From Candidatus Yonathbacteria bacterium RIFCSPLOWO2_01_FULL_43_27 (GTDB taxonomy: Bacteria; Patescibacteriota; Minisyncoccia; Phycocordibacterales; UBA1550), in the NCBI GenBank assembly GCA_001823545.1, contig MHUV01000005.1:15910-79909 (forward strand): a stretch of 64,000 nucleotides of DNA, in the 5' to 3' direction. Shown here one piece after another: positions 1 to 7,744 of this stretch. Each line of letters begins with the position of its first letter. Within the stretch, counting starts at the first letter, position 1. A program made the position numbers and the translations under genes. A model generated the notes under the pieces. The model had not been told where the DNA came from, did not search any database, and saw only the letters and a program-made list of their open reading frames with translations.

Positions 1-773
1 CCAACGCCATTGAGAACTCTACTCTAACTCTCAAGGAAACCGAGAAAATTCTTTTGGATATGGAAGTCTCACGGGATGTTTCCTTGCGTGAAGTCTACGA
101 GGCCAAAAACTTGGCTCGTGTTATCGGGTACATTCGTAATAAGAGCAAGGAGACGGAAGCGAACAAAGAGACGATTCTACTTTTACACCAGATGCTTATT
201 GGTGGAATTGACGACAAGATTGCTGGCCGTTTTAGAAAGCTTGGTGAGTATGTTCGTGTTGGAACCCACATAGCCCCGGCACCGGAACATGTTGAACGAA
301 TGATTGAGGCGATTATTACTGAGTACACAGGTGATCTATCTAACTACTTTTTAGACAAGATTGCCAAATTCCATTTAGATTTTGAAACCATCCATCCATT
401 TAACGATGGCAACGGCCGTATTGGCCGTGTACTTATTTGCTTCCAACTGCAACGTCTCGGTCTTCCTATAATTATTATCCGTGATCGCGAGAAAAAAGAA
501 TACTACAAATCTTTTGCTGAATACCGTGACAAACATAATGCCAAGACGATGGAGAAAGTTATTGCCTTAGCATTAATGGAATCATTAAATAAACGAAACA
601 CATATCTCAAGGGCCAGAAGGTTATTACTCTGTCTGAATATACAAGAAATAACAACTTGTCTGCCTCAGGAATGACTAATGCTGCTCGTCGTCAAAACAT
701 TCCGGCTTTTCGAGAAAAAGGTGTTTGGAAAATTGGCGAGGATTTTATTTATAACTCTCACAAAGAAAAATAA
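1..773 (+). CDS. fic: Fic/Doc family protein (adenylyltransferase-like), 5'-partial (reading frame open to window start)
   Basis: The canonical Fic motif HPFxDGNGRxxR is present as HPFNDGNGRIGR. The N-terminal region reads ...NAIENSTLTLKETEKIL, and there is no in-frame stop upstream to position 1. Confidence 0.8.
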   Translation, partial: NAIENSTLTLKETEKILLDMEVSRDVSLREVYEAKNLARVIGYIRNKSKETEANKETILLLHQMLIGGIDDKIAGRFRKLGEYVRVGTHIAPAPEHVERMIEAIITEYTGDLSNYFLDKIAKFHLDFETIHPFNDGNGRIGRVLICFQLQRLGLPIIIIRDREKKEYYKSFAEYRDKHNAKTMEKVIALALMESLNKRNTYLKGQKVITLSEYTRNNNLSASGMTNAARRQNIPAFREKGVWKIGEDFIYNSHKEK

Positions 774-1068: not shown

Positions 1069-1628
1069 CTATTTTATCACCTCTTCCAGCAACTCAGGAA
1101 ATTTTTCGGTTTTCATATCGTTAAAACAGAAGTGACCGTAGTTTTGAAAATCTCGAACAACGATATTTTTTACTTTGTTTTTTATAATTTCTACACTCTT
1201 TTTCATTTCCTCATCATCGTCAGTAGAATTAAAAATTGTTATACCATTTGTTTTAGACACTACATTCTCGTCTATATTAAATTCAAACATCTGAGTATCC
1301 TCTGTTTTAAATGGGTTGATCCACGGTGCAACTAAAACTACCTACCCAACTTTTACATCATTTTCACTTAGGTAGCGGAGCAAGAAACCAGCCCCGCAAC
1401 TGTGACCAATGAGCTGAGTATCACTGTCAATAACAAACTGTTTAAAGACAGAACACCATTTGGCATAGTCGGGACTATACGGCTCGGGCATTTCTGGAGT
1501 TTGTGCAAGAACACCCTTCAGGATGAGCTGTTTTTGAATCCAAGGGATCCAATGCTTATTGGACGAAGATCAGGATTAAAGTACTCTTCCTTCGGCGGCA
1601 TACCGTGAATTATAATTGCTGTTTTCAT
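1069..1628 (-). pseudogene. YdeN/RBBP9-like alpha/beta serine hydrolase gene, disrupted by a frameshift and an in-frame TAG
   Basis: The minus-strand translation begins MKTAIIIHGMPPKEEYFNPDLRP, then shifts frame into NKHWIPWIQKQL...LIGHSCGAGFLLRYLSENDVKVG. An in-frame TAG at 1342-1344 follows, and the same frame then continues VVLVAPWINPF...MFEFNID.... The HWxPWL and GHSxG motifs are those of the YdeN family. The total span of 560 nt is not a multiple of 3. Confidence 0.6.
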
Positions 1629-1762
1629 ATAGATGATTTTAGCGGGAAATACGCAGTTTTGCTAGTAAGTTAATATTTAATCAAAAGCTCTTGACCCATC
1701 CTTCCGTTCGCGTGTGGATAAAACCCAGCTCGTAAAGACGAGAGGAGTGAGGGCGGGGCTCC

Positions 1763-4531
1763 CTAGTCAATATTCAATTTTTGCATTCGTTTTTTAAGTG
1801 CATCTCCGCCCCCCTCAAGAATACTCACAATATCATCTCTAATCTGTTTATATTCAATTCCACCGTTGTGATATTTGAGATTATTGTTTTCATTTTCCGC
1901 AACTATCACATTCTCAGAGTCGGTTAGTAGTAAAAGATTAGGACTATGGGTCGCCACTATCACTTGACGTCTTTCTTTCTGGTCTAATACAAGCTTTCTT
2001 AGGTCATTTGAAATTCCGGAGACATCGATATCATTTTCTGGCTGATCAATAATTATCGGATATACACTTTTTGACAGATTGAATATGAGATCCAAAAGTG
2101 CCATCGCTTTCTGTCCACCAGTCATATTTTCAAAATCTATCAATTCCTCGCCATTCTTATATTTAACAGATTTTGTGAAATCAATATCATACCTACAGCT
2201 CAACAATGTCAGCAATGCACTCTCCTTATCACCACCTGTGACCTTCAATTTTGCAGTAGATGCATCAATGACAATATCTTTAATAATTTGAACTATTTCA
2301 GATTTATCAAAATCCCTTTTTTCATCAAAAAACTTTTTGAAACGGTCCCCAGATCGTCCATCAATATACACATCAAAAAACCTACTCTTATATTCATCTA
2401 CACTGTAACTCACTGTAAAATGGAATGTTATGAAAGTAAAATTATCAAATGCATCTTTGAGAGTTTGAACTATTCCCTCAATTTTGCTCTTAAAAGATAG
2501 GTACAAATCGGCTACTTCGTCAATTACTACTTCTTCTTTTTGACCAAATTCTTTGACAAATTTATCCAGTTTTTCTATCTCTTTTTTCTCGGCACTAAGC
2601 TTGTTTATTTCCTTTAGTATTTTTTCAATGGTTTTATTTTGCTGTAATTTCTCTGTTATTGGAACTAACTCTTTTTCGACAGTAATTTTTCTATCTTTTT
2701 TATTTTTAGTCTTTGACGCCAAGTCATTTAGCAACTCACTTAAATACTCTTTGATTTCTTGACCAGAAAGTTTTTCAATATGCTTTTCAATTAACTCTAA
2801 GGTTATCTGAGATAATCCAAAGAACACTTCACTGTCAACTGTGATGAAATTTACATCACTACCGCTATTGATGTTCTTTATAATCTGGAAATCTTGCTCC
2901 AATAACTTAATTTCTTTGATAAGTGATTCTATTTCCGAAAAATATTTTGTTTGATTTTCAATATCCGCGTCGGTTATATCAATCTTTCCAATCTTATTAA
3001 TTTCTTCTTGTTTAATTTTTATTGCACTGTCTTTATCTTCAGATTTCCCAAGTGGTTTTAGCTGGCTAGTTGTATCTACAATCTGCCTATGTGTACTTAG
3101 TGCTTCTTTAACTTTTGCATTAATTTTTAGTTCTATCGAATCTACAGCATCAGTCTTGCTTGTATCGGCGTTTTTGAATAAATCATTATTGAACAACCGC
3201 GCCTTGAGCATTTCGTCTCGTTTATCATAGTCTCTACCATCTTCATAAGTGATAGTCGATAGATAGTTTTGTGGTATGAATTCAACAAATTTATTCTCAG
3301 AGGTATCGTCGTACCAATGAATTTTAAAATCTTGTAACTTAAATATCTTTTTAACGTCAGGTTGTTCTTGCTCGCCGAGCACATTAAAAGCAATATGTTT
3401 GAGTAAAACAGATTTTCCGGCACCCCGTTTACCAATAACAGAATTTATATCCTTGTTAAAATAAATTGTGTGAATTTTACTGTTTTGCTTATATTCCACT
3501 CTGTCGATAAAAAGTTCTGGAGATGAATTTTTGTTTTCTGAGGGGTTTCTTTCTTGTATTAAAACTCTGTTTGCATAATCTACAACTACTTGTCTTAGTG
3601 TCTCAAAAGTAGTATCTCCCTTAATCCATGTAAAACAATGCCCTAAATCTTTAGGATTGGTATTAAAAAAATCAAATTTTACAACACCCTCATCTCCTGT
3701 TTGTTTAATAGTATGTGCATCACTGCAATGTAATAAACGACTATTTGCTGATTGAGTGTTTAATGAATCTATATTTTTATTTGTTTGCTTTGCACTTGGT
3801 GAAGCAGAAAAAACAATATGAGCATTGTTGATTATGTCCTTTTTGTCTACAGGAGACCCTGTCCACCTAAAATCTTCCCATTCTGATTTTCCAATAGCTT
3901 TTATATATTTACCTCTTAGATATGTGTTTGGTTCCTTTATCTCACCTAGACATTCTTTGAGTTTATCGAGACTGTAGCTTAAATTATTAAAGCCTATTTC
4001 AAAGTGATTATCGCTCTCTCTTTTATCTTCTGGAGTAGTGTCATATACATGTTTACCAAGATCAATTAAACTTTCTCTTGTAACAACTCCGCCCCAAGTG
4101 GTGCTACCCACATTATTCACATCAAGGTTGCATGATGATCTAAAACAATTTAAAAACTGTGCTTCTATTGTTTCAATATCAAGAATGCTCTGTTCCGCAA
4201 AGATAACATGGTAGTTAATTTTTTTTAATTGCTCATTACCCACAAACTCCTTTAATCTAAATTCTACAACAGGCAAAATTAAATCTATATTTTTCAGTCT
4301 GTTCACATTTTTATATTCTATTACTTTTTTGTAACCATCCAGAAACAGATAATCGTTAATACCTATAACTTTTATATCTTTGGGCAAACTTTCTAATCCA
4401 TTAATGAAATTCTCCCATTTTTTTTCTTCTGTCGCACCGGGATACTCCGATGTATGAGAAAACGGCGTGTGAACATGCAAATCCCACTTTCTCCATTCAG
4501 ACCCTTTGTTGTATTTTTGATCCTCTTCCAT
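1763..4531 (-). CDS. PHP-domain phosphoesterase fused to Rad50/SbcC-like coiled-coil ABC ATPase (candidate defence nuclease-ATPase)
   Basis: The N-terminus carries the PHP motif WDLHVHTPFSHTS. A Walker A (GKRGAGKS) is followed by a long K/E-rich coiled-coil segment of roughly 300 aa. The C-terminus carries an ABC signature (MTGGQKAMALLDL), Walker B (IIIDQPENDID) and H-loop (VATHSP). The start at Met56 of the ORF lies 4 nt after the stop of the upstream gene. Confidence 0.7.
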   Translation of the reverse strand: MEEDQKYNKGSEWRKWDLHVHTPFSHTSEYPGATEEKKWENFINGLESLPKDIKVIGINDYLFLDGYKKVIEYKNVNRLKNIDLILPVVEFRLKEFVGNEQLKKINYHVIFAEQSILDIETIEAQFLNCFRSSCNLDVNNVGSTTWGGVVTRESLIDLGKHVYDTTPEDKRESDNHFEIGFNNLSYSLDKLKECLGEIKEPNTYLRGKYIKAIGKSEWEDFRWTGSPVDKKDIINNAHIVFSASPSAKQTNKNIDSLNTQSANSRLLHCSDAHTIKQTGDEGVVKFDFFNTNPKDLGHCFTWIKGDTTFETLRQVVVDYANRVLIQERNPSENKNSSPELFIDRVEYKQNSKIHTIYFNKDINSVIGKRGAGKSVLLKHIAFNVLGEQEQPDVKKIFKLQDFKIHWYDDTSENKFVEFIPQNYLSTITYEDGRDYDKRDEMLKARLFNNDLFKNADTSKTDAVDSIELKINAKVKEALSTHRQIVDTTSQLKPLGKSEDKDSAIKIKQEEINKIGKIDITDADIENQTKYFSEIESLIKEIKLLEQDFQIIKNINSGSDVNFITVDSEVFFGLSQITLELIEKHIEKLSGQEIKEYLSELLNDLASKTKNKKDRKITVEKELVPITEKLQQNKTIEKILKEINKLSAEKKEIEKLDKFVKEFGQKEEVVIDEVADLYLSFKSKIEGIVQTLKDAFDNFTFITFHFTVSYSVDEYKSRFFDVYIDGRSGDRFKKFFDEKRDFDKSEIVQIIKDIVIDASTAKLKVTGGDKESALLTLLSCRYDIDFTKSVKYKNGEELIDFENMTGGQKAMALLDLIFNLSKSVYPIIIDQPENDIDVSGISNDLRKLVLDQKERRQVIVATHSPNLLLLTDSENVIVAENENNNLKYHNGGIEYKQIRDDIVSILEGGGDALKKRMQKLNID

Positions 4532-4535
4532 AATT

Positions 4536-5618
4536 CTATTTTCCAGACTTAGTTCTGTTGTCTTGCTTGCACAACATTTTGCAGTTTGTCGCGATTGTTT
4601 TCCCTCCCTCATGCCAAGGCTTAATATGATCCGCTTCCATTTCCTCGATCTCAAAGCGCTTTTTACACTTAGAGCAAATGCCTTTCTGTCTCTCATATGC
4701 CTCGCGCTTCATTTTGTCATTAAAGGCGCGGATATTTAACGCTCTTTCACTCCCAGTCAAAACATATTCGTAGATGCCAGACTTTTTAGTTACATCCTCA
4801 TCTTGCATCAGCTTTGTTATTTCTTTTTCCAATTTCTTAGCATCAAATTCTTTACCTTTTACTTTGTTGTATAAAGTTCCAAAAGGCACGCCTTTCATTT
4901 CCTTGCGATAGTTAGGAAAAACCGCCTTGACCCAATTTATTACACTCTGAAAATAAAGCCATAATTCGTTGGCGTTAGGTTTGTGCTGATGGTCTGCCAT
5001 GTATTGTTCAATTTTTCCATCGCTTATCCAATCTATTGTAGTTTCTAGGTAGTCTTGGCGGATTGCTGAACCATTTAAATAATCACTTCCAATGTTATAA
5101 GCGGGACAGCCAGTTTTACTAAAGTGTCTTTTTGCATCAGTTAGCCAAGTGCCAGTATAAATAGCATTTCTCAATTCTTGATCTGTTAATTTTTCCCCAG
5201 CAATGTTTATCGTCTTAAACCAATCCAATTTTTCTTTATCATTTCCTTCGCAGAAGTAAATCATCAGCTTGTAATTAAGAATCTGCTCTTTTTCGGTTTC
5301 TTCAAGATTGTGAAAATATTGGAAATTTAAGGAGAATTTACCCGCTATATATTCGCAAATACTTATAGTTCTTTGCTGTCCATCCATCACTTCATAAGTT
5401 CCATCTTCACTTTCAACCCAATACATTACATTCAAAGGAAAATTCTTTCTGACAGTTTCGATGACGGCATCTCTTTGATGATCCTTATAAACGAATTCTC
5501 TTTGATATTTAGGGCGGATATTTAATTTTCCACCATACCCAACAACACCTTCCTCGTTGTCATTAACATATTTATTTGAAACTTCTTTAATTGTGATTTC
5601 TTTTAGTTTAATTTTCAT
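4536..5618 (-). CDS. DUF262 (ParB/GmrS-like NTPase, DGQQR motif) fused to C-terminal HNH endonuclease
   Basis: The DUF262 signature DGQQR is present as VMDGQQRTISICEY. The C-terminal HNH motif reads EADHIKPWHEGGKTIATNCKMLCKQDNRTK. The probable start MKIKLKEITIK has an AGGA upstream. Confidence 0.75.
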   Translation of the reverse strand: MKIKLKEITIKEVSNKYVNDNEEGVVGYGGKLNIRPKYQREFVYKDHQRDAVIETVRKNFPLNVMYWVESEDGTYEVMDGQQRTISICEYIAGKFSLNFQYFHNLEETEKEQILNYKLMIYFCEGNDKEKLDWFKTINIAGEKLTDQELRNAIYTGTWLTDAKRHFSKTGCPAYNIGSDYLNGSAIRQDYLETTIDWISDGKIEQYMADHQHKPNANELWLYFQSVINWVKAVFPNYRKEMKGVPFGTLYNKVKGKEFDAKKLEKEITKLMQDEDVTKKSGIYEYVLTGSERALNIRAFNDKMKREAYERQKGICSKCKKRFEIEEMEADHIKPWHEGGKTIATNCKMLCKQDNRTKSGK

Positions 5619-5622
5619 AAAT

Positions 5623-6723
5623 TTATATTTTCCTATTTCTAATAATGACTCGAGCATAAATGCTTGAATATAGTTCTCCTGTTTCAGTATCCTTAAACGC
5701 AGGCGTTTTATCTGTTAGTGGATTGTATAAACGATATAATGTGCCTTTTGCGTTAAACGTATATTTTCCAGTAGGTGCCCCACTTTTGTCCAAAATCTCC
5801 ATTTTTTTATTAGAAGCAAAATCAATTGATCCAATTATTCCTAAAGCAACTAATTCAAATTGATCAGGACTGTACTTGTCCAAAAAAGTAATAGGAACAC
5901 CAATAGCACCCTTATAATCCACAGGAATATCTTTTGTTACATCAACATTTATAGCATCATAATTTTTATATTTGGGATATTCATTTTCATGTCCGTGATA
6001 CTCTTTATAAAGTATCAAGTCGTCGTGGCGTTCTTTATAATCCAAATTTGTAAACCAACGAACACCCTTAACTCGAATAAATTTATTTCCATTTTCATCA
6101 ATTCTATTTCCAGCAGAATTCAGAGGGTAAGATTCTGGAACTCTAAATTCCCTATCCCCGCTATGTATGCTTTGACCAAGCCAAATTTTGTTCTCCTTGA
6201 TCAATTTGAAAGTTTCTTTATAAGTTATAGCGTTCAAATTGCCGATAATAATAAATTTCTTTTTGTATTCAAATAATTGAGCTAGATATTCTCTAAATAA
6301 TGAAAAAGGTGGATTCGTAACAACAATGTCCGCTTCTTTTAGAATTTCAACACACTCGGGACTTCTAAAATCACCATCCTGTTTTAGTGGGGTTTTGATT
6401 GTATCTAATTTATTTATTTTTCCATCTTTATTTGTGTCTTTTACAATTTCCAATTTATAAGGCGATTCTTTTGTAAGCAAATTTGCATCTTTGTAATGAG
6501 TAGAGATGAGCTTCTTTAGTCCAAGGAATTCAAAATTTAAAGCAAAGTAATTCCAAAAATTGCTTTCTTCTGGGTCATCGCAATTACAAAATATGACTTT
6601 ATTTTTTAAGTGATCTTTATAATTTTTTAATTCTTTTTCAATATCAGACAACTGTGTATAAAACTCGTCGCTTTTTGCTCGGTTTGCCGTCTTTAAGTTT
6701 GCATTTGAGGATTTCTTTTTCAT
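5623..6723 (-). CDS. N6-adenine DNA methyltransferase (NPPF catalytic motif; EcoRI-methylase-like N-terminal DEFYT motif)
   Basis: The catalytic tetrapeptide NPPF appears as VVTNPPFS, with KSDEFYTQL near the N-terminus. It is the first gene of the minus-strand operon, downstream of an AT-rich promoter region. Confidence 0.65.
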   Translation of the reverse strand: MKKKSSNANLKTANRAKSDEFYTQLSDIEKELKNYKDHLKNKVIFCNCDDPEESNFWNYFALNFEFLGLKKLISTHYKDANLLTKESPYKLEIVKDTNKDGKINKLDTIKTPLKQDGDFRSPECVEILKEADIVVTNPPFSLFREYLAQLFEYKKKFIIIGNLNAITYKETFKLIKENKIWLGQSIHSGDREFRVPESYPLNSAGNRIDENGNKFIRVKGVRWFTNLDYKERHDDLILYKEYHGHENEYPKYKNYDAINVDVTKDIPVDYKGAIGVPITFLDKYSPDQFELVALGIIGSIDFASNKKMEILDKSGAPTGKYTFNAKGTLYRLYNPLTDKTPAFKDTETGELYSSIYARVIIRNRKI

Positions 6724-7008
6724 AAAATTATTTCAAAAGTTCGCTACTGGAAATTCCTAAAGCTCCAGCGTTTTTTCAGCTACTTTTGACGATATATATC
6801 AGAGTAATACTCTTTATTATCCTTATTTTTACAATACTTTATCAAATTTAGTATTCTCATTTATGAGAGAGTTTAACACATTTTGTTACAGAAAACCACT
6901 TCAAAAAAAGGGCATAACCCCTTTCCCTACAATATCGACAATATACTAGAATAACAACAATTATGATCCTATTAAATTAAAAATTATTATAGTATAATTA
7001 AACATATT

Positions 7009-7545
7009 ATGAAAAAATTTCTAAGTGTTTTGGTACGAATATTGGTCACTATCATAATAGCTACTGGTGTTTGCTATCTCATATATTCATATAGTAGTAA
7101 TTGGCGATATCTTGATCAAAAGAATCTTGTTTTTACTGTTGAAGATGCGAAGGGCGGTGAAGCTTTTGATGTTGTTGTTACAAAAGATCAGTTTAGTAAA
7201 TTACCTAATGCAACGACAACGATAAATAAATTAAGAAAAGGCGTTTATTCGAAAAATTGGGGAAATGAGGATACTTTAGTTGTAAAAGCAGTTGACTGGT
7301 ATAACTGTGGAGCTGGTCAAATATGGGGAAGTTATAAAATCGAAGACGATAAAATAACCATATTTAGTGGTAAAAAAAGTTTTGGACTCAAATTAATAAA
7401 CGTAGCAGAGGCTTGTATATATAGCTATGTGATGACCTACGAAATTTCAAATCTTGAATATAAAGATTACCAGATAACATATGTTCGGGCGCCTTACAAG
7501 CGAGGCTTTTTTGATTCCTTCATACCACAACCACGCTCCTTGTAA
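7009..7545 (+). CDS. Hypothetical membrane-anchored protein (N-terminal TM helix)
   Basis: A 178-aa ORF with a hydrophobic N-terminus (LVRILVTIIIATGVCYLIY). It is transcribed divergently from the methyltransferase operon and is AT-rich. Confidence 0.45.
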   Translation: MKKFLSVLVRILVTIIIATGVCYLIYSYSSNWRYLDQKNLVFTVEDAKGGEAFDVVVTKDQFSKLPNATTTINKLRKGVYSKNWGNEDTLVVKAVDWYNCGAGQIWGSYKIEDDKITIFSGKKSFGLKLINVAEACIYSYVMTYEISNLEYKDYQITYVRAPYKRGFFDSFIPQPRSL

Positions 7546-7587
7546 TTAAAGATGGGAGTTGTTCATATTAAAAACGAACAAGGAACA

Positions 7588-7744
7588 TTGACTCGCTTCG
7601 CTCGCCTCACTTTGTGTGGTCACAAATCACTAACCTACGGGGAAGCTCGCGATGTTCGCGGATCGGTCACAGATATTTTTCTGCTGAAAATAAATATATT
7701 GACTCGCTCCGCTCGCCTCACTTTGCGTGGTCACAAATCACTAA
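7588..7744. repeat. Two 46-nt direct repeats (7588..7633 and 7699..7744) plus hairpin motifs of the form TTTTTCnnnnGAAAAA
   Basis: TTGACTCGCTTCGCTCGCCTCACTTTGTGTGGTCACAAATCACTAA is repeated with 2 mismatches. Related short motifs recur at 829-853 and 7805-7825. Confidence 0.6.

What the first reader, a model, noticed from the sequence alone, without database searches (positions are those of the whole stretch)
1763..4531. Single-chain SbcCD analogue: PHP nuclease domain fused to a coiled-coil ABC ATPase
The protein has an N-terminal PHP motif (WDLHVHTPFSHTS) and a Walker A (GKRGAGKS). A roughly 300-aa Lys/Glu-rich coiled-coil separates this from the ABC signature-like MTGGQK, the Walker B IIIDQPE and the H-loop ATHSP. 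This is the Rad50/SbcC head-coiled-coil-head layout. In SbcCD and Mre11-Rad50 the nuclease is a separate calcineurin-like subunit; here a PHP phosphoesterase appears to be fused in cis instead. Fusions of this kind are sparsely described and could be DNA-end or hairpin-targeting effectors.
Basis: partly seen in the sequence, partly recalled or inferred. Interest (0 to 1): 0.7.

Follow-up and report, generated by a model that had tools for sequence, protein, structure and literature searches.

The report
Ppl-like defence nuclease riding restriction operons
The gene encodes a real single-chain PHP nuclease fused to a Rad50-like ATPase, but it belongs to an already named and widespread family (TrlF) related to the studied anti-phage protein Ppl; what may be new is that its close relatives always sit at the end of, or inside, restriction-modification operons.

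Summary

The novelty claim does not hold. The protein passes the NCBIfam cut-off for the 'TrlF family AAA-like ATPase'. It aligns end to end with E. coli Ppl (hhalign probability 99.7%). Papers held here report Ppl as a single-gene anti-phage ssDNA 3'-5' exonuclease inhibited by NTPs and triggered by 3'-OH DNA ends. The family has about 6,460 clusters at 50% identity and is routinely annotated on plasmids.

It is not a close SbcCD analogue. It has no zinc hook, and the Walker B catalytic glutamate is a glutamine (DQPE) in almost all members, Ppl included. This suggests nucleotide sensing rather than a hydrolysis-driven cycle.

One lead goes beyond the finding. The gene is the last cistron of a type II restriction-modification operon. 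In 17 of 17 informative loci of close relatives (64-89% identity; the window's own locus is an eighteenth), it is tightly joined to restriction-modification operons of six different kinds. Functional coupling is inferred, not shown.

The parts
1763..4531 (-). TrlF-family gene (922 aa plus stop): PHP domain, ABC head with coiled-coil insert
   Evidence: ORF. NCBIfam TrlF 398.9 bits, full length. AF2 model pLDDT 84.3.
3527..4531 (-). N-terminal PHP-fold nuclease domain (aa 1-335), with a helical insertion at about aa 112-205
4469..4477 (-). H19-x-H21, PHP motif I
   Evidence: Invariant or nearly invariant in 45 sequences. Aligns with DLHSH of E. coli RNase AM and DFHNH of Ppl.
3713..3724 (-). 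S270-D271-A-H273, the last PHP motif (DxH)
   Evidence: Invariant. Also SDAH in Ppl, pNP40 and Klebsiella TrlF.
3194..3508 (-). ABC head N-lobe (aa 342-446), with Walker A (nt 3410-3433) and Q-loop Q421
   Evidence: Pfam SMC_N and ABC_tran, sub-threshold. Invariant G372, K373, Q421.
2459..3184 (-). Antiparallel coiled coil (helices aa 450-555 and 590-691), with a Cys-free apex at aa 556-589
   Evidence: DSSP of the model. No Cys or CxxC.
1766..2434 (-). ABC head C-lobe (aa 700-922): signature TGGQK (nt 2108-2125), Walker B IIIDQPE (nt 2036-2056), H-loop (nt 1940-1954)
   Evidence: Pfam AAA_21 27.3 bits. AriA match over aa 812-867. DQPE invariant.
4536..5657 (-). Restriction endonuclease (GmrSD_N/DUF262 plus HNH). 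Its stop codon is followed by 4 nt and then the TrlF start codon.
   Evidence: Pfam GmrSD_N 76.6 and HNH 41.6 bits. PADLOC REase_II 480 bits, full length.
5623..6723 (-). EcoRI-like N6-adenine DNA methyltransferase, overlapping the REase gene by 35 nt
   Evidence: Pfam EcoRI_methylase 446 bits, positions 1-344 of 345. PADLOC MTase_II 395 bits.
6816..6845 (-). Promoter-like site (TTGATA-18-GATAAT) upstream of the methylase. Candidate operon promoter; consensus match only.
   Evidence: The number of such sites in the region is not above shuffled expectation.
1690..1762 (-). GC-rich 3' flank directly after the TrlF stop codon, containing a weak terminator-like hairpin (1729-1742). It is shared with TrlF genes that sit in other R-M contexts.
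   Evidence: No significant fold (z 0.42).

Best explanation
This is a TrlF-family protein, a distant full-length homologue of the anti-phage protein Ppl. It is encoded as the last cistron of a horizontally acquired type II restriction-modification operon (methylase, DUF262-HNH endonuclease, TrlF) in a Patescibacteria genome.

Most likely mechanism (all steps inferred): the N-terminal PHP domain is a metal-dependent exonuclease. The ABC head with its coiled coil binds ATP/NTP and dimerises, but it has Gln in place of the catalytic Glu and so probably hydrolyses slowly or not at all. At normal nucleotide levels this would hold the nuclease off. When infection drains the NTP pool and DNA with free 3'-OH ends is present, the nuclease would degrade that DNA.

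In this clade the ends are plausibly those made by the co-expressed restriction enzyme. TrlF would then finish off restricted DNA.

What is shown here: the fold, the motifs, family membership, homology to Ppl and the gene linkage.

What is inferred: nuclease activity, nucleotide gating (by homology to Ppl and from the DQPE motif) and coupling to restriction.
For: - Family membership: NCBIfam TrlF 398.9 bits against a cut-off of 350, aa 9-919 on model positions 1-943.
- Homology to E. coli Ppl over 798 columns, probability 99.7%, E 4e-26. Shared motifs are GSxW-x-(W/F)D(L/F)HxHTP, SDAH, Walker A, xGQK, DQPE and the H-loop.
- Rad50/SMC/AriA-like head.
- Ppl is reported as an ssDNA 3'-5' exonuclease that is inhibited by NTPs bound to both its PHP and NTPase domains and activated by 3'-OH ends (PMC12904381; Xu et al. 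2026, cited in PMC13434339 ref 51 and in 10.64898/2026.05.12.722862).
- Gln follows the Walker B Asp in 68 of 74 family loci and in Ppl. The same substitution (E393Q) is the engineered change in deposited AriA structures.
- Operon structure: 35-nt overlap between M and R, 4 nt between R and TrlF.
- Low-GC island, 0.32-0.34 against 0.44.
- 17 of 17 informative loci of close relatives (the window's own locus is an eighteenth) have TrlF joined to an R-M operon. Six R-M kinds are represented, while TrlF stays 64-89% identical.
- More distant relatives lie in defence islands beside Gabija-like, Abi, OLD-like and R-M genes, and on the phage-resistance plasmid pNP40.
Against: - No experiment exists for any TrlF-family member as a defence gene in the papers held here. 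The family's name comes from a Photorhabdus temperature-restriction locus in which trlF itself gave no phenotype (10.1101/2020.06.02.129163).
- Identity to Ppl is only about 21%. The Ppl models do not reach their cut-offs (88.9 against 1000 bits).
- The window protein has no Pfam PHP hit.
- Only about six of the nine canonical PHP metal ligands can be placed from conservation, and the model's geometry could not be inspected.
- The closest PHP structures include an RNase, a lesion-specific endonuclease and a non-nuclease, so the fold does not fix the substrate.
- E832 in DQPE might act as an alternative catalytic base.
- The 17 linked loci are not independent events. They represent about six R-M contexts.
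- Distant relatives have R-M neighbours in only about a fifth to a quarter of loci. Linkage may therefore reflect co-transfer and shared expression rather than shared mechanism.
Confidence: 0.6

Rival explanations
1. TrlF is an autonomous Ppl-like single-gene defence system. It merely hitch-hikes on R-M operons for a promoter and for co-transfer. It senses its own trigger and has no mechanistic link with restriction.
For: - Ppl works as a single gene (PMC11482910, PMC12904381).
- Relatives at 35-54% identity stand alone in varied mobile contexts.
- Most of 69 wider-family loci have no conserved neighbour.
- The variety of R-M partners argues against a specific protein-protein partnership.
Against: - 17 of 17 linkage in the close clade.
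- Gaps of 0-40 nt and a recurring junction in which the upstream stop codon lies 3-5 nt before the ATG, across six R-M kinds.
- Insertion between hsdM and hsdS/hsdR, inside the type I operon.
Confidence: 0.25
2. TrlF is a back-up that guards restriction. The ABC/coiled-coil module would sense anti-restriction proteins or a disabled R-M enzyme and then unleash the PHP nuclease. PrrC in the EcoprrI locus and PARIS AriA sensing Ocr work this way.
For: - The closest solved sequence relative of the head is AriA, and PADLOC gives an AriA hit.
- AriA-Ocr complex structures exist (8v45).
- The gene sits inside type I operons. PrrC has the same position (my own knowledge, not checked here).
Against: - The partners include four unrelated type II systems and type III systems. 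No common anti-restriction trigger is known for these.
- The trigger published for the homologue Ppl is DNA ends plus NTP loss, not a phage protein (PMC12904381).
Confidence: 0.1
3. The protein would be a true single-chain SbcCD/Mre11-Rad50 analogue that uses ATP hydrolysis and coiled-coil bridging to process DNA ends or hairpins, for repair or defence.
For: Rad50, RecN and SMC heads are among the best structural matches. Ppl's N-lobe matches P. furiosus Rad50 by sequence. The layout is head, coiled coil, head.
Against: - No zinc hook or hinge at the apex.
- The arms are only about 100 residues each.
- The catalytic Glu is replaced by Gln family-wide.
- The gene lies in a low-GC mobile island inside an R-M operon, not among repair genes.
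- The family is patchy, plasmid-borne and located in defence islands.
Confidence: 0.04
4. The PHP domain acts on RNA, as an RNase AM-like exoribonuclease, so the system is an abortive-infection RNase.
Against: Ppl is reported as a DNA exonuclease (PMC12904381). EndoQ and the polymerase PHP exonucleases match equally well.
Confidence: 0.04

Closest known systems
TrlF family AAA-like ATPase (NCBIfam NF045780), named after trlF of the Photorhabdus laumondii TRL operon
   Same: Full-length match above the curated cut-off. Same length class and same PHP-plus-ABC layout. PGAP gives the same name to plasmid homologues that align over 99% of the query.
   Different: Only 23-26% identical to the plasmid examples. 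The Photorhabdus partners are absent here: TrlG (AlbA_2 plus HATPase_c_4) and the small regulator TrlR. The neighbours in this window are an R-M pair. No biochemical function is published for the family in the papers held.
Ppl, the single-gene anti-phage system of E. coli (NCBIfam NF042955; PADLOC Ppl)
   Same: Homologous end to end (hhalign 99.7%, 798 columns). Identical motif set, including DQPE. Same domain order, and no zinc hook.
   Different: About 21% identity. The score is far below the Ppl equivalog cut-off (88.9 against 1000 bits). The window protein's PHP domain carries an extra helical insertion. Ppl is stand-alone on plasmids and prophage hotspots, whereas this gene is the last cistron of an R-M operon.
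SbcCD / Mre11-Rad50
   Same: ABC head split by an antiparallel coiled coil and associated with a metal-dependent nuclease. Structural match to Rad50 heads.
   Different: The nuclease has a PHP fold, not a calcineurin-like fold, and it is fused rather than separate. No CxxC zinc hook. The coiled coil is much shorter. The Walker B Glu is replaced by Gln.
PARIS AriA and other OLD/AAA_21-type defence ABC ATPases (Gabija GajA, Septu PtuA, MADS MAD3)
   Same: Best sequence match in the PDB (AriA, E 1.5e-5). Pfam AAA_21 at threshold. PADLOC hits to mad3, AriA and PtuA. Located in defence islands.
   Different: Those systems use TOPRIM or HNH nucleases, either separate or fused at the C-terminus. They have no PHP domain. 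AriA has DEPE in the wild type.
Spaf_1101 family AAA-like ATPase (NCBIfam NF045781)
   Same: The C-terminal half is related (144 bits; hhalign 99.5% over 123 columns). It has the DQPE motif and an N-terminal HxHTP motif.
   Different: Below the cut-off (475). The N-terminal and middle parts do not align.

Membership tests
TrlF family (NCBIfam NF045780) | Whole-protein score at or above the curated cut-off (350 bits), with full-length coverage | tested here: met
   398.9 bits; aa 9-919 on model positions 1-943 of 944
TrlF family (NCBIfam NF045780) | TRL-operon context as in the name-giving locus (trlR-trlF-trlG; TrlG = AlbA_2 plus HATPase_c_4) | tested here: not met
   The window's neighbours are an EcoRI-like methylase, a DUF262-HNH endonuclease and Fic. 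A TrlG-like gene was seen in only 2 of 70 family loci. Context is not part of the NCBIfam definition.
Ppl anti-phage protein (NF042955 / PADLOC Ppl) | Score at or above the equivalog cut-off (1000 bits) | tested here: not met
   88.9 bits, C-terminal half only. PADLOC Ppl 82.5 bits.
Ppl anti-phage protein (NF042955 / PADLOC Ppl) | Same architecture and catalytic motifs (PHP HxH and DxH; Walker A; signature; DQPE; H-loop) | tested here: met
   hhalign end to end, probability 99.7%; motif table
Ppl anti-phage protein (NF042955 / PADLOC Ppl) | ssDNA 3'-5' exonuclease inhibited by NTPs; protects against phage as a single gene | not testable with these tools
   Needs biochemistry and plaque assays. 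Known for Ppl only from PMC12904381, PMC11482910 and the citation of Xu et al. 2026.
PHP superfamily | PHP (beta/alpha)7-barrel fold | tested here: met
PHP superfamily | Pfam PF02811 at the gathering score | tested here: not met
   No hit for the window protein. Relatives with the short N-domain reach 20-21 bits against a cut-off of 26.4.
PHP superfamily | Complete set of metal ligands (HxH, D, H, E, H, H/C, DxH) | tested here: inconclusive
   H19, H21, H108, D271 and H273 are invariant or nearly so. E89 is conserved allowing for a 2-residue alignment shift.
SbcCD / Mre11-Rad50 | Rad50-type ABC head with coiled-coil insertion | tested here: met
SbcCD / Mre11-Rad50 | CxxC zinc hook at the coiled-coil apex | tested here: not met
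   No CxxC in the protein; no Cys between aa 300 and 778
SbcCD / Mre11-Rad50 | Calcineurin-like (Mre11/SbcD) nuclease partner | tested here: not met
   No such gene adjacent. The nuclease here is a fused PHP domain.
SbcCD / Mre11-Rad50 | Catalytic Glu after the Walker B Asp | tested here: not met
   D829-Q830, invariant
PARIS (AriA/AriB) | AAA_21 ABC ATPase paired with a DUF4435/TOPRIM AriB | tested here: not met
   AAA_21 27.3 bits, at threshold. No TOPRIM gene nearby.

The most novel reading that the evidence does not exclude
In Patescibacteria, this TrlF clade is a portable 'restriction finisher'. It would be a cassette that plugs into any R-M operon (type I, II or III) by translational coupling. 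It would use the 3'-OH ends made by the restriction enzyme, together with falling NTP levels, as the signal to destroy cut DNA exonucleolytically. That would supply the post-restriction degradation that RecBCD provides in other bacteria. It would be a general two-step restriction-plus-degradation module that has not been described.
Probability: 0.25. Interest if true: 0.6.

Novelty: new member of a known kind. Interest (0 to 1): 0.35.

Why it matters
As a protein, this is another member of a large, already named family whose relative Ppl has a published mechanism. The architecture itself is therefore not news.

Three points are of some value:

1. The whole Ppl/TrlF/Spaf_1101 group carries Gln at the catalytic Walker B position. 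This gives a simple structural reason why its 'ATPase' would act as a nucleotide sensor rather than a motor.

2. The strict linkage of one clade to six unrelated kinds of restriction-modification operon suggests a testable functional partnership between restriction and a DNA-end-sensing exonuclease. The hosts are Patescibacteria, candidate-phyla-radiation bacteria with small genomes (the genome size is from my own knowledge, not checked here).

3. Closely related proteins have exchanged their PHP domain. This shows modular evolution of the nuclease head.

Tried and rejected
- Pfam on the window protein and on its isolated N-domain gave no PHP hit.
- A profile of 15 N-domains against PDB sequences found nothing meaningful.
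- hhalign of that profile against E. coli RNase AM aligned only the 12-residue HxH motif, probability 2%. The PHP assignment therefore rests on fold searches.
- No Ppl or TrlF structure is in the PDB copy, by sequence or by fold.
- I looked for a zinc hook or hinge and found none.
- I looked for a conserved TrlG/TrlR partner. It was absent here and rare elsewhere.
- I looked for tRNA-derived direct repeats bounding the low-GC island next to tRNA-Glu. I found only unrelated short repeats.
- Rfam found nothing in the region except tRNAs.
- The conserved 3' flank does not fold better than shuffled sequence, z 0.42. I do not claim it as an RNA element.
- Promoter and terminator scans were no better than chance.
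- Two papers were not available to read: Krishnan et al. 2020 (ABC ATPase classification) and Xu et al. 2026 (Ppl mechanism). What I say about Ppl comes from papers that cite Xu et al.
- Lactococcal plasmid papers do not mention the pNP40 TrlF gene.
Full report
**1. What is there**

The finding's coordinates hold a minus-strand ORF. Its longest form runs 1763-4696. The upstream gene's stop codon is at 4536-4538, and the family model begins aligning at residue 9 of the 922-aa form. The start is therefore the ATG at 4531, four bases after the upstream stop codon.

The identical protein is on record from a 94-kb metagenome contig. Homologues at 73-88% identity are labelled Paceibacterota, Patescibacteria or Dojkabacteria.

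**2. Structure**

An AlphaFold2 model built from 45 homologues has a mean pLDDT of 84.3. It has four parts:
- a mixed alpha/beta N-terminal domain (aa 1-335)
- an ABC head N-lobe (aa 342-446)
- a long antiparallel helical hairpin (aa 450-555 out, aa 590-691 back, apex aa 556-589)
- the ABC head C-lobe (aa 700-922)

Foldseek against the PDB returns SMC, RecN, JetC, MukB, Rad50, AriA and LmuB heads at E 9e-9 to 1e-4.

Sequence methods do not see this. Pfam gives no PHP hit for the window protein. A profile search of PDB sequences failed. Only the HxH motif aligns with E. coli RNase AM.

The conserved positions are H19, H21, E89 (allowing for a small alignment shift), H108, D271 and H273. They sit where PHP metal ligands are expected. 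I could not inspect the model's geometry, so a complete metal site is not proven.

The apex has no cysteine, so there is no zinc hook.

**3. Family**

NCBIfam places the protein in the 'TrlF family AAA-like ATPase' at 398.9 bits against a cut-off of 350, over its full length. There are weaker sub-threshold matches to Spaf_1101 and to the anti-phage protein Ppl. PADLOC gives Ppl, mad3 and AriA.

I took a bona fide E. coli ppl gene from a plasmid record and compared it with the family profile. The two align end to end: 798 columns, probability 99.7%, E 4e-26, about 21% identity. The alignment includes the N-terminal GSxWxKxDxHxHTP block, SDAH and the block after it.

TrlF and Ppl are thus distant homologues with one architecture.

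The family is large and widespread:
- 6,462 clusters at 50% identity with E <= 1e-3, and 869 with E <= 1e-30
- at least 578 loci among species-representative genomes across many bacterial phyla, plus one Methanospirillum
- 172 plasmid records with full-length matches, nearly all already named 'TrlF family AAA-like ATPase'

The plasmid records include the Lactococcus phage-resistance plasmid pNP40 and Klebsiella IncFII plasmids. On the latter the gene lies beside an ATP-binding protein/UvrD-helicase gene pair and an Abi gene.

**4. What is known about function**

The name TrlF comes from the Photorhabdus temperature-restriction locus trlR-trlF-trlG. All selected mutations there fell in trlG, and trlF had no separate phenotype (10.1101/2020.06.02.129163).

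Ppl is a single-gene defence system with an ATPase domain and a PHP domain (PMC11482910). A 2026 review summarises it as an ssDNA 3'-5' exonuclease. NTPs bound to both its PHP and NTPase domains inhibit it, infection-driven nucleotide depletion relieves that inhibition, and 3'-OH ends activate it (PMC12904381). The primary paper is Xu et al., Mol Cell 2026, cited in PMC13434339 and 10.64898/2026.05.12.722862. I could not read it.

**5.

The 'Walker B' is D829-Q830-P831-E832. In ABC ATPases the residue after the Asp is the catalytic Glu.

Wild-type AriA has DEPE. Several deposited AriA structures carry the engineered E393Q form, which reads DQPE. In the TrlF family Gln is the natural residue. 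It occurs in 68 of 74 loci, with one Glu, and also in Ppl (LLLDQPE) and Spaf_1101.

Walker A, the Q-loop, the signature Gly and the H-loop are all invariant.

My inference is that the head binds nucleotide and dimerises but turns over slowly. That would fit a sensor kept 'off' by ATP, as reported for Ppl, and would not fit a Rad50-like motor. E832 could still act as a substitute base, so this needs measuring.

**6. Genomic setting**

The gene is the third cistron of a compact minus-strand unit:
- an EcoRI-like adenine methylase at 5623-6723 (Pfam 446 bits)
- a GmrSD_N/DUF262-HNH endonuclease at 4536-5657 (PADLOC REase_II 480 bits), overlapping the methylase gene by 35 nt
- TrlF, starting 4 nt after the endonuclease stop codon

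The block has 32-34% GC against about 44% for the rest of the window. It lies between cell-wall genes plus tRNA-Glu on one side and a Fic gene on the other. This points to horizontal acquisition.

**7. Linkage to restriction-modification**

I collected contexts for close relatives (64-89% identical to the window protein). In every locus with readable upstream sequence, TrlF directly follows or sits inside an R-M operon. That is 17 of 17 loci beyond the window, and the operons are of different kinds:

| R-M context | Loci |
|---|---|
| EcoRI-like methylase plus DUF262-HNH | window, L097, L103, L105, L107 |
| Type I, hsdM-TrlF-hsdS-hsdR | L001, L004, L106, L112, L113, L114 |
| D12 methylase, DpnII, N6_N4 methylase | L002 |
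| N6_N4 methylase, IceA, D12 methylase | L104 |
| RadC-C5 methylase plus HpaII | L111 |
| Type III mod plus res | L098, L099, L101 |
| N6_N4 methylase fragment | L108 |

TrlF proteins at 77-89% identity to the window protein occur in all six contexts. By contrast, the R-M genes of the 'same' context are only 38-67% identical.

The 5' junction repeats a pattern. In most loci the upstream gene's stop codon lies 3-5 nt before the TrlF ATG within an A-rich leader. Several loci where TrlF is the last gene share a GC-rich stretch of about 75 nt after the stop codon.

The linkage weakens with distance. Relatives at 35-54% identity stand alone in variable, often mobile, contexts. Among 69 family loci from reference genomes, R-M domains are the commonest neighbour class, but only in roughly a fifth to a quarter of loci, and most loci have no conserved neighbour.

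The 17 loci are not 17 independent events. About six contexts is the safer count.

**8. Interpretation**

With good confidence, this is a Ppl-like defence nuclease of the TrlF family. Its co-expression with restriction is shown by gene arrangement.

The idea that it acts on restriction-generated 3'-OH ends is an inference. It rests on the linkage and on what is reported for Ppl. The alternatives are autonomous hitch-hiking, a guard of restriction that senses anti-restriction factors (as PARIS and PrrC do), an RNA target, or a true SbcCD-like repair activity. The last is the least likely, given the missing hook, the Gln and the mobile defence context.

**9. Verdict**

- Observation: confirmed.
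- Interpretation: partly supported. The architecture is right, but the 'sparsely described SbcCD analogue' claim is not.
- Novelty: a new member of a known kind.
- Worth following up: the restriction linkage, the family-wide DQPE motif and the exchange of PHP domains between close relatives.

Noticed in passing
window 7587-7633 and 7698-7744; partial copy at 979-1007: Two 47-nt direct repeats, 96% identical and 111 nt apart. They lie between an orphan 178-aa ORF and tRNA-Glu. A shorter related piece lies on the far side of the low-GC island. They may be a small repeat element or a mark of the island's border.
   Followed up: no
window about 1069-1640 (-): Apparent broken gene for an alpha/beta serine hydrolase, possibly YdeN-like (assigned by eye, no search run). 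It reads MKTAIIIHGMPPKEEYF... HSCGAGFLLRYL... and is interrupted by a stop codon. It lies between TrlF and Fic.
   Followed up: no
window 1690-1762 (-); L098 9255-9330, L099 5266-5340, L101 8238-8320, L107 5852-5930: A GC-rich stretch of about 75 nt directly after the TrlF stop codon, with a hairpin of variable sequence and a conserved box CGCGAACGGRAGGRTGGGTCAAG. It is shared by TrlF genes attached to different R-M systems. It has no significant fold in the window (z 0.42). It may mark the 3' end of a mobile cassette.
   Followed up: partly
window 4532-4545 and the equivalent junctions in L097-L113: In most loci, whatever the upstream gene, its stop codon lies 3-5 nt before the TrlF ATG within an A-rich leader (e.g. 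aaaTAGaattATG, aaaTAAaattATG, gaaaTAAaatATG). This suggests translational coupling and a fixed 5' cassette border.
   Followed up: partly
relatives P0052, P0060, P0065, P0067, P0074, P0077, P0078; L113: Close relatives whose C-terminal 70% is 60-86% identical to the window protein carry a different, shorter PHP domain (about 277 aa). In L113 the N-domain is 38% identical and the C-part 84%. The short form lacks the helical insertion and is the only one that Pfam PHP detects, weakly. This looks like exchange of the nuclease module.
   Followed up: partly
window 54-773 (+); L007 6011-6934; L103 8041-8649: A Fic-domain gene (PADLOC PDC-S04/SoFic-like) lies convergent to TrlF in the window. A Fic gene lies directly upstream of a 54%-identical TrlF in L007. 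A weak Fic-like ORF lies downstream in L103.
   Followed up: no
window 7009-7545 (+): A 178-aa ORF with an N-terminal hydrophobic segment and no match in Pfam, NCBIfam or PADLOC. It lies inside the low-GC block between the R-M operon and tRNA-Glu.
   Followed up: no
L111 5251-6912: A single ORF combining a RadC-like JAB domain (with UPF0758_N and HhH) and a C5 cytosine methyltransferase. It is followed by an HpaII endonuclease gene and then TrlF.
   Followed up: no
L092 (pNP40) 4662-5945; two further family loci: A DUF2130 gene sits immediately upstream of TrlF on the lactococcal phage-resistance plasmid pNP40. DUF2130 also appears as a downstream neighbour in two other family loci. It may be an occasional partner.
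   Followed up: no
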